Below are positions 12,969-15,362 of a stretch of 64,000 bases of DNA, in pieces. Each line of letters opens with the position of its first letter. Position 1 is the stretch's first letter. Location: contig JBFIHX010000003.1 in the NCBI GenBank assembly GCA_041601615.1, positions 282,007 through 346,006 on the forward strand. Reading direction: 5' to 3'. The stretch comes from Thermoplasmatota archaeon. GTDB lineage: Archaea; Thermoplasmatota; E2; JACPAO01; JAHFTW01. The notes below the pieces were generated by a model. The model saw only the letters and a program-made list of their open reading frames with translations, made no database searches and had not been told where the DNA came from. The position numbers were made by a program, and so were the translations under genes.

Positions 12969-13051
12969 TAGCTCTTTCTCCCGTACACGCGCCCACCGGA
13001 CCCAAACAGACAGGCAAAGCGGTCAAATAGGGGCGCTATGTGGGCCGCAAC

Positions 13052-13804
13052 ATGGCTCTAGCCCGTGCCCGCCAAGCTGCCCGCCGCGTCAAGGACCGAT
13101 GGAAGTCCAAGCAATGGTACACCATCTCGGCCCCCGCCGCGTTCAACAACCACCTGCTTGGCGAGACCTTCGCCGACGAACCCCAAAAGCTCATCGGCCG
13201 CACCAGCGAAGTCACACTCCAAGACCTCACGGGCGACATGCGCCAAATGCACGTCAAGCTGACCTTCAAAGTCAACGAAGTCAACGACATGCAGGCCAAG
13301 ACTGTCTTCACTGGCCACAACATGACCAGTGACTACGTGCGCCGCCTCACCCGCCGCGGGCACACCAAGATCCCCGCCGTCTTCGACGTCAAGACCAAGG
13401 ACGGCAGCCGCCTCCGTGTCAAGCCGTTCGCCATCACCGACCGCCGCGCCCAAACCGGCGCCGCCCAGGACATCCGCCGCATCATGGTGGAACACATCGA
13501 GAAGGCCGCCAAGGAGAACACCCTCAGCGGATTCCTGAAGCTCGTCCTGATGGGCGAACTCAGCAACACGATCTACAAGGACGCCCGCAAGATTCACCCC
13601 CTGCGCCGCGTCGAGATCGCCAAGACGGAAGTCCTCAGCGCCCCCTCGATCGAAGTCGACGAAACCCCCATCATCGTCGTCGAAGAAGAGGTCGAAGAGA
13701 CGGAAGAGAGCGAGGAAGACCTCGACGCCGGCCTCATCGAGAGCGACTCCGAAGACGAGGAATCCGAAGCTGAATCGGCCGACGACGACTCCGAAGAAGA
13801 GTAA
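13052..13804 (+). CDS. rps3ae: 30S ribosomal protein S3Ae (eS1) with acidic C-terminal tail
   Basis: KDRWKSKQWY, LIGRTSEVTLQDLTGD, DYVRRL, IHPLRRVEIAK. Confidence 0.95.
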   Translation: MALARARQAARRVKDRWKSKQWYTISAPAAFNNHLLGETFADEPQKLIGRTSEVTLQDLTGDMRQMHVKLTFKVNEVNDMQAKTVFTGHNMTSDYVRRLTRRGHTKIPAVFDVKTKDGSRLRVKPFAITDRRAQTGAAQDIRRIMVEHIEKAAKENTLSGFLKLVLMGELSNTIYKDARKIHPLRRVEIAKTEVLSAPSIEVDETPIIVVEEEVEETEESEEDLDAGLIESDSEDEESEAESADDDSEEE

Positions 13805-13814
13805 GCCCACGAGG

Positions 13815-13844
13815 CTCCCCTTTCCCCCTTCCCCTCCCCCTTCT
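13815..13844 (+). terminator. Polypyrimidine tract, putative terminator
   Basis: ctcccctttcccccttcccctcccccttct immediately after the rps3ae stop. Confidence 0.45.
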
Positions 13845-13848
13845 GTGG

Positions 13849-13920
13849 GGGCCTATAGGGTAGTGGATATCCTTTCGGCCTTCGAAGCCGAAAACCCCGG
13901 TTCGAATCCGGGTAGGCCCG
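13849..13920 (+). tRNA. tRNA-Arg(TCG)
   Basis: Acceptor GGGCCTA/TAGGCCC, anticodon loop CT-TCG-AA, T-arm GGTTCGAATCC; no encoded CCA. Confidence 0.95.
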
Positions 13921-14030
13921 TTTTGCAGCACCCCGCAAGGGGATGCTTTACTGAAACAAGTCTCGTGGGGGCTAGGTGCCCCCGTTTGCGCGCCCCAAAG
14001 GAGCTGAGCCTAACGCCGGGCGCAGTGGGT

Positions 14031-14351
14031 TGCGAGGAGCAGGATGGTTTGCGGAGGCCGAGCGCAGCGAGGTTTCCGTAAACCGAGGGCGCGTAGCGCC
14101 CGGAGACTGCGGCTCGCATTGAGCGCAGCGAAATGCGAGGAGCAGGATGGGAGTGGGGAGCCCGGAGGGCGACCCCGACCTCCTGCGTCTCGCATTCGAG
14201 CGAGCGCAGCGAGAGAGAATGCGAGGAGCAGGATTCGACGATAAGCGAATGCGAGCATTCGCTCATCGATCTCGCTCTCTTCGTTCGCGAGCAAATCCTG
14301 CTCGCGCAAAATGCCCGGTCGGGGACCGGGCATGAATGCGAGGAGCAGGAT
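14031..14351. repeat. Array of four direct copies of the tRNA-Leu 3' end (TGCGAGGAGCAGGAT) separated by unique structured spacers
   Basis: Copies start at 14031, 14134, 14220 and 14337 (the tRNA itself); periods 103, 86 and 117 bp. Confidence 0.9.
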
Positions 14352-14418
14352 TCGAACCTGCGAACCACTAAGGACCAGCCCCTCAAGCTGGCGTCGTTGG
14401 CCGCTTGACTATCCTCGC
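14337..14418 (-). tRNA. tRNA-Leu(GAG)
   Basis: GCGAGGA acceptor, CCAGC-TTGAGGG-GCTGG anticodon arm, variable arm, GGTTCGAATCC. Confidence 0.95.
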
Positions 14419-14465
14419 GATGTGTTGGCGGATGCTGTTGTTCGTCCCGCTTGGAGACGAACAAG

Positions 14466-14549
14466 CGCGACGAGGGAGATTTGAACTCCCGTGGGAAGAA
14501 TCCCAGAGGCTTAGCAGGCCCCCGCAATACCGAGCTATGCGATCGTCGC
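14466..14549 (-). tRNA. tRNA-Ser(GCT)
   Basis: GCGACGA/TCGTCGC acceptor, GGGGC-CTGCTAA-GCCTC anticodon arm, long variable arm, GTTCAAATC. Confidence 0.93.
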
Positions 14550-14681
14550 TTGCGGATGTCGGCTCGGAGCCCCGTGCCGAAGGCGGGCGACTTGGGTAGG
14601 GGTTATCACCATTTCGTCTGGCGCTGGCTGGAGCTTGGGCGTGGTGGAGGCGGTTTGGGCGTAGGTCTGGGGTCGTTTTGG

Positions 14682-15362
14682 GTGCCGATTGCTTATGTGG
14701 TTCGTCGGCTCGGGCGGGTCGTGCGGTTCGTGGATGGTCGGCTGCTGATGTGGTTGCTCGTGGCGGTGTTTGCTTCGGGTGTGCCCTTGGCGGTTTGGTT
14801 TGATGCGGATGCGACGCGGGCGGTGTCGTTGGTGGAGCGATGGCTGCGGGGGGCGCACGCGGTTTCCACGGCGTTGCTGGTGTTGGGGACTGTGTTGCAC
14901 TTGGTCATGCGGCTTCGGGGGCGCGTGGAGCCGCGGGTGGTCCGGTGGGGCGGTTTGTCGCTGGCGTTTGTGGGCCTTGCTGCGGCGACGGGCGCGCTCG
15001 TGGACCAGACGGGGCACGGGGCGCGAGCGTGGGCACGCCTTGGATTGGATGTGGGTGCGGTTTCGGCGGTTGCTGTGGTGCATGTGGCGTTTGCTTCGGT
15101 GCTGGTGGCGTTGGGCGTGTATGTTCATGTGGCGCGCAAGTCTCGGGTGCGGATTTTTGGCGGTTGGCAAAGTGCTGCGATTTCGTTGGTCCTGGTGGTC
15201 CTCGGCGTCGCGTTGTTGCCGGGCGTGGCTCCGGGTGCCGGTTCTGGGCACATTGCGACGGTTGCCGTGGCGCCGGGCGGCTTTGCGTGGCCGGTGTTGG
15301 TGGGCCTCGTGGTAGCTGTGGGTGCGCGCTGGTTGTCTTCTTGGCGTGGCGGCCTAGCGTAG
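14682..15362 (+). CDS. Divergent cytochrome b N-terminal-like membrane protein (start uncertain)
   Basis: LRGAH..(13)..LH and VVH..(14)..VH His pairs on TM helices. Confidence 0.55.
   Translation: MPIAYVVRRLGRVVRFVDGRLLMWLLVAVFASGVPLAVWFDADATRAVSLVERWLRGAHAVSTALLVLGTVLHLVMRLRGRVEPRVVRWGGLSLAFVGLAAATGALVDQTGHGARAWARLGLDVGAVSAVAVVHVAFASVLVALGVYVHVARKSRVRIFGGWQSAAISLVLVVLGVALLPGVAPGAGSGHIATVAVAPGGFAWPVLVGLVVAVGARWLSSWRGGLA

What the first reader, a model, noticed from the sequence alone, without database searches (positions are those of the whole stretch)
14031..14418. tRNA-Leu 3'-end array whose unique spacers fold back on the repeat and carry GNA mini-hairpins
Seen: the last 15-19 nt of tRNA-Leu recur at 14220, 14134 and 14031 with unrelated spacers (periods 117, 86, 103 bp). 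Every spacer ends in an imperfect inverted copy of the repeat (CTGC-GG-CTCGCA; CTCCTGC-GT-CTCGCA; AATCCTGCTC-GCGCA), so the repeat can pair within one strand. Internal hairpins include GGTTTGCGGAGGCC/GGTTTCCGTAAACC, whose G-T pairs favour the + strand (antisense to the tRNA), GGGCGC-GTA-GCGCCC, and three copies of GA-GC-GCA-GC-GA. Established: tRNA 3' ends are common integrase attachment sites, GC-GNA-GC is an unusually stable DNA mini-hairpin, and integron attC and CTXphi attP recombine as folded ssDNA. Inference: three sequential integrations of ~100 bp non-coding elements, each restoring the tRNA end, forming a chronological array with no enzyme encoded nearby.
Basis: partly seen in the sequence, partly recalled or inferred. 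Interest (0 to 1): 0.85.

Follow-up and report, generated by a model that had tools for sequence, protein, structure and literature searches.

The report
Hairpin modules trailing tRNA-Leu genes
Behind a leucine tRNA gene of a marine archaeon lie three folded units, each built around a copy of that tRNA's own tail, and because the same kind of unit follows leucine tRNA genes across this archaeal group it looks like a conserved, undescribed feature and not like three foreign insertions.

Summary
The last 15 nt of tRNA-Leu(GAG) recur exactly at window 14220, 14134 and 14031. Each unit also holds an imperfect inverted copy and a GAGCGCAGCGA cap, and folds better than shuffles on both strands.

The genome is archaeal (Thermoplasmatota). 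The array is not a local accident. Two other tRNA-Leu genes of this genome carry the same unit type, each matched to its own tRNA tail. No other tRNA does, apart from tandem tRNA gene pairs.

Across relatives, 34 of 92 tRNA-Leu loci in 18 genomes have such units: families f1 and f3 do, 13 loci of f2 and 5 outgroup loci do not. Against a congener whose flanking DNA is 68% identical, unit C is 96.6% and unit A 84.5% identical. A three-helix fold of the unit-A type covaries across four genera. Arrays change by tandem duplication and unit loss.

No Cas1 was found in 31 genomes of the order. Arrays occur in genomes without an integron integrase, and the units fail an attC model.

Best reading: a conserved tRNA-Leu tail module that duplicates locally, probably acting on the tRNA-Leu trailer. 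The function and the acting strand are unproven. Serial integration of 100-bp elements is not supported, but it is not excluded.

The parts
14337..14418 (-). tRNA-Leu (anticodon GAG). Its last 15 nt are the repeated tail; no CCA is encoded.
14220..14336 (-). Unit C, next to the tRNA. Read on the tRNA strand it holds: a 10-bp hairpin (14311-14333) followed by TTTT, an inverted tail copy (14294-14308), two inner hairpins, and a tail copy (14220-14234, with identity reaching into the T-loop).
   Evidence: 96.6% identical to G002
14134..14219 (-). Unit B: a pyrimidine linker with the cap (14202-14212), an inverted tail copy (14181-14197), one inner hairpin and a tail copy (14134-14148). It is absent from the orthologous array of congener G002.
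14031..14133 (-). Unit A: a linker with the cap (14121-14131), an inverted tail copy (14107-14120), hairpin P2 (14087-14101), hairpin P3 (14046-14059 with 14071-14084, capped at 14060-14070) and a tail copy (14031-14045).
14465..14549 (-). tRNA-Ser (GCT), upstream in the same orientation. This neighbour is conserved in relatives and carries no such units.
13849..13920 (+). tRNA-Arg (TCG), convergent with the array and 110 nt from unit A. Context only.

Best explanation
The array is three copies of a lineage-specific structured module that belongs to tRNA-Leu genes in one order of Thermoplasmatota archaea. It is not a record of foreign insertions.

Read on the tRNA strand, a module has four parts:
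- a short linker with a small triloop-capped hairpin;
- a stretch complementary to the tRNA's T-stem and acceptor 3' strand, which equals the acceptor 5' strand plus the T-stem 5' strand, usually with 2-3 central mismatches;
- one or two further hairpins;
- a copy of the last 13-22 nt of the tRNA, ending at the discriminator.

Shown: modules are inherited with the tRNA-Leu genes. They multiply and are lost by recombination between tail copies (tandem duplication, unit loss, duplicated proximal flank). They are exchanged between tRNA-Leu loci. They stay matched to the neighbouring tRNA.

Inferred, and my commitment: the module acts in cis on the tRNA-Leu transcription unit. The trailer RNA folds into helices that imitate the acceptor/T-arm 'top half' of tRNA-Leu and end at a tRNA-like 3' terminus. 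Such helices could serve as handles or decoys for tRNA end-processing enzymes (RNase Z, RNase P, CCA-adding enzyme), or they could shape termination and trailer stability. The more distal units would be less constrained duplicates.

The acting strand, and whether the acting molecule is RNA or DNA, are not settled.
For: Specificity.
- In this genome 3 of 6 tRNA-Leu genes (GAG, CAG, CAA) have a downstream tail copy with at most 2 mismatches in 15 plus an inverted copy with at most 3.
- Among the other 42 tRNAs, only tandem gene pairs (Asp, Gly-GCC) have such a copy.
- In relatives, 18 of 46 tRNA-Leu loci have a copy with at most 1 mismatch. None of 16 other tRNAs does.

Distribution.
- 46 units lie in 34 of 92 tRNA-Leu loci, in 18 genomes.
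- By family the loci counts are f1 30/68, f3 4/6, f2 0/13 and class-level outgroups 0/5.
- All five anticodons are represented.

Match to the locus's own tRNA.
- The tail copy and the inverted copy follow GCGAG, GCAAG or GCATGC according to the locus.
- An inverted copy with at most 3 mismatches in 13 occurs in 26 of 46 units. It occurs in 15 of 920 shuffles.

Constraint.
- Against G002, unit C is 96.6% identical and unit A 84.5%. The tRNAs are 100% identical, the Ser-Leu spacer 40% and the next 1.4 kb 68%.
- G005, in another genus, has a C-type unit followed by an A-type unit in the same order.

Structure.
- Ten A-type units from 5 genomes in 4 genera support three helices. 91.4% of cells are paired, against 81.4% when shuffled.
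- 13 pairs change on both sides, against a shuffled mean of 5.3 (0 of 500 shuffles reach 13) and 0-4 when partners are slid.
- Mean fold z of all 46 units is -3.65 on the sense strand and -4.27 on the antisense strand.

Co-transcription is plausible.
- No T4 run lies between the tRNA and the units at the CAG locus (first one at +285) or the CAA locus (none within 400 nt).
- By contrast, 22 of 48 tRNAs have a T4 within 30 nt.

Local duplication.
- Near-identical tandem units occur in L046, L049, L082, L014 and L041.
- The G002 array reads C, A', A'', then a partial C.
- A 47-nt proximal flank is repeated at the CAA locus.
Against: - No RNA data exist. No RNA run holds this DNA, so transcription of the units is an inference.
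- At the window locus a hairpin plus TTTT lies between the tRNA and the first inverted copy. That could end transcription before the module.
- The inverted copy fits the preceding tail (usually the real tRNA end) better than its own downstream copy in 13 of 20 informative units. The reverse holds in 2, and 5 tie. This argues against selection on the minihelix-like pairing.
- The strand signals do not favour the tRNA strand. The antisense strand folds better in 30 of 46 units. Mismatches in the inverted copy comprise 51 transversions, 24 antisense-strand wobbles and 7 sense-strand wobbles. The purine-rich, structured form of the cap lies on the antisense strand in most linkers.
- Covariation and conservation would also arise in a folded-DNA element. 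Apparent double changes can also come from template switching within palindromes.
- All genomes are metagenome bins and the units are related to each other, so the counts are not independent.
Confidence: 0.4

Rival explanations
1. A DNA-level palindrome with no RNA role. A fold-back or template-switch replication error at the stable mini-hairpin just after tRNA-Leu created a tail / inverted tail / tail arrangement. Unequal recombination amplifies it. Gene conversion from the tRNA gene and correction within the palindrome keep it matched. It persists as structural or selfish DNA.
For: - The direct-inverted-direct layout around a short cap is what two template switches give.
- There is no consistent strand preference.
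- The inverted copy stays closest to the true tRNA end, while downstream copies decay without compensation.
- Tandem duplication and flank duplication are seen.
- The same cap crowns many unrelated hairpins in this genome: 53 sites, against 2-15 for six composition-matched controls.
Against: - Units are much better conserved than the neighbouring DNA (96.6% and 84.5% against 68% for the next 1.4 kb and 40% for the Ser-Leu spacer).
- Architecture and unit order are kept across genera.
- The central mismatch persists instead of being corrected to a perfect palindrome.
- The restriction to tRNA-Leu would need an added assumption.
Confidence: 0.25
2. The units are small non-coding mobile cassettes that enter the tail of tRNA-Leu genes by site-specific recombination, perhaps as folded single strands. 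Each restores the tRNA end, and the enzyme is supplied in trans.
For: - Whole units are present or absent exactly at the tail copies (unit B, G000 against G002).
- Unit order differs between G012 and G020.
- Identical units follow two different tRNA-Leu genes in G012 (L019 and L042).
- Unit A is 89% identical to the first unit at the CAG locus.
- The cap is shared with the genome's attC sites. G000 encodes an integron integrase (TIGR02249, 414.6 bits) and 58 attC-like sites.
- Many contigs of relatives end at these arrays.
Against: - The units fail the attC model built from this genome's own sites. In the window only the 18-nt cap matches, at E 1.7. The best hit in 35 sources is 17.3 bits at E 0.022.
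- The integrase was found in 9 of 25 f1 genomes and in 0 of 16 genomes outside f1. Arrays occur without it, for example in G006 (94% complete, 10 contigs) and G026.
- No Y1 transposase or reverse transcriptase was found in G000, and only 3 tyrosine-recombinase hits, none near a tRNA-Leu.
- No viral contig carries the tail as an attachment site: 15 hits, all chance matches without the T-loop context.
- An element's internal inverted copy should not match each new target.
- The high conservation and the fixed unit order speak for vertical descent.
Confidence: 0.12
3. The functional molecule is an RNA from the strand opposite the tRNA (the plus strand in the window, the same direction as rpS3Ae and tRNA-Arg). 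It would carry repeated stretches antisense to the tRNA-Leu tail inside capped hairpins.
For: - The antisense strand folds better in 30 of 46 units. For window units A and B the RNA z-scores are -4.5 and -4.6 against -1.9 and -3.0.
- Wobble-type mismatches favour this strand, 24 against 7.
- The stable purine form of the cap (a G-N-A triloop flanked by G/A) lies on this strand in most linkers.
Against: - Units of genus g5 and unit C fold better on the tRNA strand, and g5 units carry G-N-A caps on that strand.
- Downstream genes are not consistently convergent. In L005 a co-directional ORF starts right after the unit.
- No promoter or expression evidence exists.
- The strand richer in G and T always gains wobble pairs, so part of the signal is compositional.
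Confidence: 0.1
4. The units are footprints of a casposase (Cas1) that duplicates about 14-15 bp of target at tRNA-Leu ends. That would give a CRISPR-like repeat/insert array.
For: Methanosarcina mazei casposons insert at the 3' end of tRNA-Leu genes, give 14-bp target duplications with a conserved CGCA, and occur in tandem sharing the duplication (passages read in PMC4779613 and PMC6977970). The repeat length here is about 15 nt and the repeat ends in CGCA.
Against: - Cas1 (PF01867) was found in 0 of 31 genomes of the order. It occurs only in class-level outgroups that lack arrays.
- In M. mazei the duplication starts at the last 4 bp of the tRNA and runs downstream. Here it is the last 13-22 nt of the tRNA itself.
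- There are no terminal inverted repeats.
- The interiors are conserved and structured.
Confidence: 0.03

Closest known systems
Partial tRNA genes left by integrase-borne elements (att repeats at tRNA 3' ends)
   Same: An intact tRNA gene is followed by direct copies of its 3' part. The identity starts in or near the T-loop and ends at the tRNA end.
   Different: In the archaeal cases I read, the repeats are 44 bp and enclose about 9-23 kb of foreign DNA with an integrase (PMC9897764, passages). Here the copies are 13-22 nt long and 76-140 nt apart. There is no integrase. An inverted copy and conserved hairpins lie between the copies. The feature is restricted to tRNA-Leu and conserved across genera.
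Casposon target-site duplications at tRNA-Leu (Methanosarcina mazei)
   Same: Both are archaeal, both target the tRNA-Leu 3' end, both have a repeat of about 14 bp containing CGCA, and tandem elements share the repeat.
   Different: No Cas1 was found in the order. There are no terminal inverted repeats. The duplicated segment differs. The inserts are about 100 nt of conserved hairpins, not kilobase-scale transposons.
Integron attC sites
   Same: Both are imperfect palindromes able to fold as single strands. They carry the same GAGCGNAGCGAG cap as the 58 attC-like sites of this genome, which also encodes an integron integrase.
   Different: The units do not match the attC covariance model. They lack the TAAC...GTTA boxes seen in alignment A2. 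They occur in genomes where no integron integrase was found.
REP/BIME-type and other small palindromic intergenic repeats (recalled, not tested as a family)
   Same: Both are short non-coding palindromic units, often in small arrays, that break assemblies.
   Different: The units are not dispersed. BLAST finds them only at tRNA-Leu loci. Their arms derive from the adjacent tRNA. No Y1/RAYT-type transposase was found in G000.
tRNA-like processing handles (tRNA-like element before haloarchaeal 5S rRNA, tRNA-snoRNA units, mascRNA; recalled from memory)
   Same: A helix imitating the acceptor/T-arm and ending at a discriminator could be read by RNase Z, RNase P or the CCA-adding enzyme.
   Different: There is no expression or cleavage evidence here. 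The helix has central mismatches. The units score nothing against the Rfam tRNA model.

Membership tests
Integrase att relic / genomic island at a tRNA | Direct repeat equal to the 3' part of the tRNA | tested here: met
   Exact 15-mer occurs 3 times downstream of the gene.
Integrase att relic / genomic island at a tRNA | Tyrosine or serine integrase, and kilobases of foreign DNA between the repeats | tested here: not met
   The spacers are 71-102 nt. PF00589 gives 3 hits in G000, on contigs C16, C13 and C8, none at a tRNA-Leu. Serine recombinases were not searched.
Casposon target duplication | Cas1 casposase in the genome or lineage | tested here: not met
   PF01867 was found in 0 of 31 genomes of the order. 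These are bins 70-94% complete.
Casposon target duplication | Terminal inverted repeats bounding the insert | tested here: not met
   The spacer ends are not inverted copies of each other. They share a direct TCGCTGCGCTC.
Integron attC | Match to the attC structure and sequence model of the same genome | tested here: not met
   Model R1 finds 58 sites in G000. In the window units it matches only the 18-nt cap, at 11 bits and E 1.7.
Integron attC | Co-occurrence with an integron integrase | tested here: not met
   The integrase is present in G000. Arrays also occur in G002, G003, G006, G007, G010, G015, G022-G024 and G026, where none was found.
Known RNA family (Rfam 15), including tRNA or pseudo-tRNA | Covariance-model match | tested here: not met
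   Only the true tRNAs match, in the window region and in 8 array loci at E up to 0.1-1.
IS200/IS605-derived or REP-type palindromic elements | Y1 (HUH) transposase in the genome, and dispersed copies | tested here: not met
   PF01797 gives no hit in G000. The units have no copies away from tRNA-Leu loci.
CRISPR array | Repeats of about 24-47 nt with foreign-derived spacers and cas genes | tested here: not met
   The repeat is 15 nt. The spacers are conserved hairpins. No Cas1 was found. The size range is as quoted in PMC4779613.
tRNA-like processing handle (minihelix) | Transcribed and cut by RNase Z or RNase P at the mimic | not testable with these tools
   No RNA run holds the locus.

The most novel reading that the evidence does not exclude
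The units are enzyme-less mobile mini-cassettes of about 100 nt. They travel as folded single strands and are recombined into, and between, the tails of tRNA-Leu genes by a trans-acting host or integron-type recombinase. The arrays would then be true insertion records, a non-coding cassette system parallel to the integron in the same genome.
Probability: 0.1. Interest if true: 0.85.

Novelty: new variant of a known kind. Interest (0 to 1): 0.6.

Why it matters
Copies of tRNA tails downstream of tRNA genes are normally read as scars of integrated viruses and plasmids. Here the same signature marks a conserved, structured, isotype-specific module.

- It is kept matched to its own tRNA.
- It is found in at least 18 uncultured marine archaeal genomes.
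- It has no Rfam family.
- I found no description in the searches.

If it is transcribed, it would be a new class of tRNA-tethered structured RNA that reuses the tRNA's own top half. If it acts as DNA, it would be a new kind of tRNA-anchored palindromic element.

Either way it warns against calling genomic islands or 'integration records' from tRNA-tail repeats alone. It also gives a concrete target for small-RNA sequencing in Thermoplasmatota.

Tried and rejected
- RNA evidence: no RNA holder is listed for window 13000-15000.
- Contigs of runs X1-X4: X1 spans the array unchanged. The X2-X4 contigs break inside it. No joint skipping a unit was seen, so this says nothing about gain or loss.
- Viral attachment site: 15 IMG/VR contigs hold the 16-mer tail. 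None has the T-loop context or lies in a tRNA. All look like chance, mostly coding, matches.
- Unit-A core pattern: 0 viral contigs and 12 metagenome contigs, none next to a tRNA-Leu and all unrelated sequence.
- Genome-contig scan for two tails 72-102 nt apart: 4 loci. Two are Thermoplasmatota MAGs identical to the loci of G021 and G005. One is a DPANN MAG. One is an unrelated 60-nt tandem repeat in an Acidobacteriaceae MAG.
- Other negative tests, detailed above: Rfam, Cas1, Y1 transposase and reverse transcriptase, and the attC model on the units.
- C/D-box, H/ACA and bulge-helix-bulge readings were checked by eye only and dropped. I saw no boxes and no 3-nt bulges.
- A retroelement primer-binding-site reading was dropped. 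No TGG for CCA precedes the inverted copy, and no reverse transcriptase was found.
- One literature query failed on a term error.
- Supplementary tables of the casposon papers, which hold exact target duplications, could not be seen.

Full report
**What is in the window.**
- tRNA-Leu(GAG) lies at 14337-14418 on the minus strand. tRNA-Ser(GCT) lies just upstream of it (14465-14549, minus strand). A convergent tRNA-Arg(TCG) lies at 13849-13920.
- The last 15 nt of tRNA-Leu recur exactly at 14220, 14134 and 14031, with spacings of 117, 86 and 103. The 14-mer occurs nowhere else in the 2.79-Mb genome.
- Each of the three units also holds an imperfect inverted copy of the tail (14294-14308, 14181-14197, 14107-14120).
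- The 11-mer GAGCGCAGCGA sits at 14060, 14121 and 14202.
- Every unit, and every tail/cap/inverted-tail junction, folds better than 200 dinucleotide shuffles on both strands, with DNA and with RNA parameters (z -1.7 to -8.9).
The only correction is that the spacers are not wholly unrelated. A and B share their ends (D2, D3, D5), and A has a close relative elsewhere.
- A 10.4-kb contig from an independent assembly of run X1 covers the array without a difference. That run may be the source sample.

**Whose genome.**
- The gene ending at 13804 is ribosomal protein S3Ae (PF01015, E 5e-69). I recall this family as archaeal and eukaryotic.
- Two relatives' loci were found by pattern in named records. 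Both are 'Thermoplasmatota archaeon' MAGs. Their sequences equal the loci of G021 and G005.
- Runs holding the DNA are marine metagenomes.
- The genome is a 93%-complete bin of 30 contigs with 48 tRNAs, none with an encoded CCA at the Leu genes.

**The array is one instance of a tRNA-Leu-specific module.**
- In the same genome, tRNA-Leu(CAG) (contig C3:126776-126857) and tRNA-Leu(CAA) (C5:116512-116594) are followed by the same arrangement: tail, capped linker, inverted tail, hairpins, tail copy.
- The first CAG unit is 89% identical to window unit A over 74 nt.
- At each locus, both the direct and the inverted copy carry that locus's own acceptor sequence: GCGAG, GCAAG or GCATGC.
- Among all 48 tRNAs, a downstream tail copy with at most 2 mismatches in 15 exists only for these three Leu genes and for two tandem gene pairs (Asp, Gly-GCC). 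The background is 4-7 mismatches. The other three Leu calls (TAG, and two TAA) have none.
- BLAST finds unit sequences only at tRNA-Leu loci.

**Relatives.**
- I fetched tRNA-Leu loci from 33 further genomes.
- The criterion for a unit was a copy of the T-stem/acceptor 13-mer with at most 2 mismatches, chained within 260 nt. By that criterion there are 46 units in 34 of 92 tRNA-Leu loci, from 18 genomes. The median unit is 104 nt, and loci hold 1-3 units.
- By family the loci counts are f1 30/68 (17 of 24 genomes), f3 4/6 (all four loci of G026), f2 0/13, and class-level outgroups 0/5.
- All five anticodons occur (CAG 13 loci, GAG 10, TAG 6, TAA 3, CAA 2).
- 18 of 46 Leu loci have a copy with at most 1 mismatch in 15. 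None of 16 other tRNAs in the same loci does, mostly the neighbouring tRNA-Ser.
- Many loci are cut by contig ends, and the bins are 70-97% complete. Absences are therefore 'not found in those searched'.

**Anatomy.**
- On the tRNA strand, the tail (or the tRNA itself) is followed after 12-27 nt, in most units, by the inverted copy. The linker usually holds CTCGCTKCGCTCG or another small triloop hairpin.
- The inverted copy has at most 3 mismatches in 13 in 26 of 46 units, against 15 of 920 shuffles.
- Its T-stem part is almost invariant: 1-3 mismatches per position among 32 distinct sequences. The acceptor part carries 5-12 per position.
- The unit therefore reads as acceptor 5' strand plus T-stem 5' strand, then hairpins, then T-stem 3' strand plus acceptor 3' strand plus discriminator. 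That is the 'top half' of the tRNA with a large insert.
- Rfam's tRNA model does not see the units.

**Evidence for constraint.**
- G002 belongs to the same genus, yet its neighbouring 1.4 kb is only 68% identical and its Ser-Leu spacer 40%. Against it, unit C is 96.6% identical (113/117), unit A 84.5% and both tRNAs 100%.
- G005, in another genus, keeps a C-type unit (79% identity including the tRNA) followed by an A-type unit.
- Ten A-type units from G000, G002, G003, G005 and G010 align to three helices: the tail helix, GGGCGC-NNN-GCGCCC, and a variable capped hairpin.
- On that alignment 91.4% of cells are paired, against 81.4% when shuffled. 13 pairs change on both sides, against a shuffled mean of 5.3 (0 of 500 shuffles reach it) and 0-4 when partners are slid.
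- The structure was derived from these sequences, and the sequences are related to each other. The numbers therefore overstate independence.

**How arrays change.**
- Unit B is absent from G002, exactly from tail copy to tail copy.
- G002's array reads C, A', A'', then a partial second C that repeats the tRNA-proximal 80 nt.
- The CAA locus of G000 repeats the 47 nt that follow the tRNA after its last tail copy.
- L046, L049, L082, L014 and L041 hold near-identical tandem units.
- G012 has the same unit after its CAG and TAG genes, and G020 has related units in another order.
- These are the marks of unequal recombination and conversion between tail copies and between paralogous loci. The interiors of window units A, B and C themselves do not align to each other.

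**Enzymes.**
- G000 has no Cas1, no Y1 transposase and no RVT_1 hit. It has three tyrosine-recombinase hits.
- One hit is an integron integrase (TIGR02249, 414.6 bits). One sits beside tRNA-Met. One is a fragment.
- Cas1 was found in 0 of 31 genomes of the order.
- The integron integrase was found in 9 of 25 f1 genomes and in 0 of 16 others. Arrays occur in G006 (94% complete, 10 contigs), G026 and others without it.
- A covariance model built from ten attC-like sites of G000 finds 58 sites in the genome. In the units it matches only the cap. The units are therefore not attC sites, although they share the cap.

**Which strand, RNA or DNA.**
- This is open. The antisense strand folds better in 30 of 46 units. 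Units of genus g5 and unit C fold better on the tRNA strand.
- Mismatches in the inverted copy are mostly transversions: 51, against 24 antisense-type and 7 sense-type wobbles.
- The inverted copy fits the preceding tail better than the following one in 13 of 20 informative units. The reverse holds in 2.
- No T4 run separates the tRNA from the units at the CAG and CAA loci. At the window locus a hairpin plus TTTT does.
- GCGNAGC is a documented, extraordinarily stable DNA mini-hairpin. It is seen at single-strand initiation sites of phages and plasmids (PMC13037366, search listing and passages). That keeps a folded-DNA role alive.

**Verdict.**
- The finding is a real, conserved and, as far as my three literature searches go, undescribed tRNA-Leu tail module.
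- I commit, at 0.4, to a cis role on the tRNA-Leu transcription unit through trailer helices that imitate the tRNA's top half.

Noticed in passing
outside the window: G000 contig C16:112-13896 (attC-like sites) and C16:15942-17264 (integrase); further sites on C21, C25, C1, C11, C13, C26: This archaeal bin carries an integron. It has an integron integrase (TIGR02249, 414.6 bits) next to an array of at least 13 same-strand attC-like sites, and 58 attC-like sites genome-wide by a model built from ten of them. Orthologous integrases (69-74% identity) occur in 8 other genomes of family f1. Integrons in Archaea have been reported (preprint 10.1101/2022.02.06.479319, seen as a search listing only).
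   Followed up: partly
whole genome G000; in the window at 14060, 14121 and 14202: GAGCGNAGCGA caps many unrelated hairpins: 53 sites, against 2-15 for six composition-matched control motifs. The 12-mer GAGCGNAGCGAG is more frequent than its reversed control in most f1 genomes, but not in f2 or f3.
   Followed up: partly
outside the window: G000 C1:235820, C2:306597, C3:252360, C4:57850, C5:134662: A five-copy conserved element of unknown nature. It is a GC stem capped by GAGCGNAGCGAG, followed by gcccaaaa..tcgaac(t)ttttgaaggtc.
   Followed up: no
outside the window: G000 C4:235659/235742 and C9:74/157 (contig ends): A tandem repeat with an 83-nt period containing the same cap. It probably breaks the assembly.
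   Followed up: no
outside the window: G000 C13:21850-21926 and C13:22005-23159; C17:42804 and 52261: A classical contrast case. tRNA-Met lies directly beside a 384-aa tyrosine integrase gene. Exact copies of its 14-nt tail lie 9.5 kb apart on another contig, which suggests an ordinary integrated element.
   Followed up: no
locus L056:2412-2533 (a MAG titled Candidatus Iainarchaeum): An intron-containing tRNA-Leu(GAG)-like gene in an AT-rich DPANN bin. An exact 14-nt tail copy lies about 108 nt downstream, and no obvious inverted copy is present. The phenomenon, or simple att scars, may reach beyond Thermoplasmatota.
   Followed up: no
window 13040-13804 (+): Ribosomal protein S3Ae with an unusually long acidic C-terminal tail of about 50 residues rich in E, D and S.
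   Followed up: no
outside the window: G000 C3:126910-129417, just after the tRNA-Leu(CAG) units: Two ORFs of 357 and 474 aa. The second opens with an ATPase-like GKT motif. They may form a small inserted island at this tRNA-Leu gene. No family search was run.
   Followed up: no
loci L125, L126, L128, L129, L132-L134 (metagenome contigs of one sample): An unrelated repeated element that starts many short contigs. It ends in ...ggcagtctccgggcgcggagcgcccgaataac, followed by variable sequence. It was hit by chance with the unit-A core pattern.
   Followed up: no
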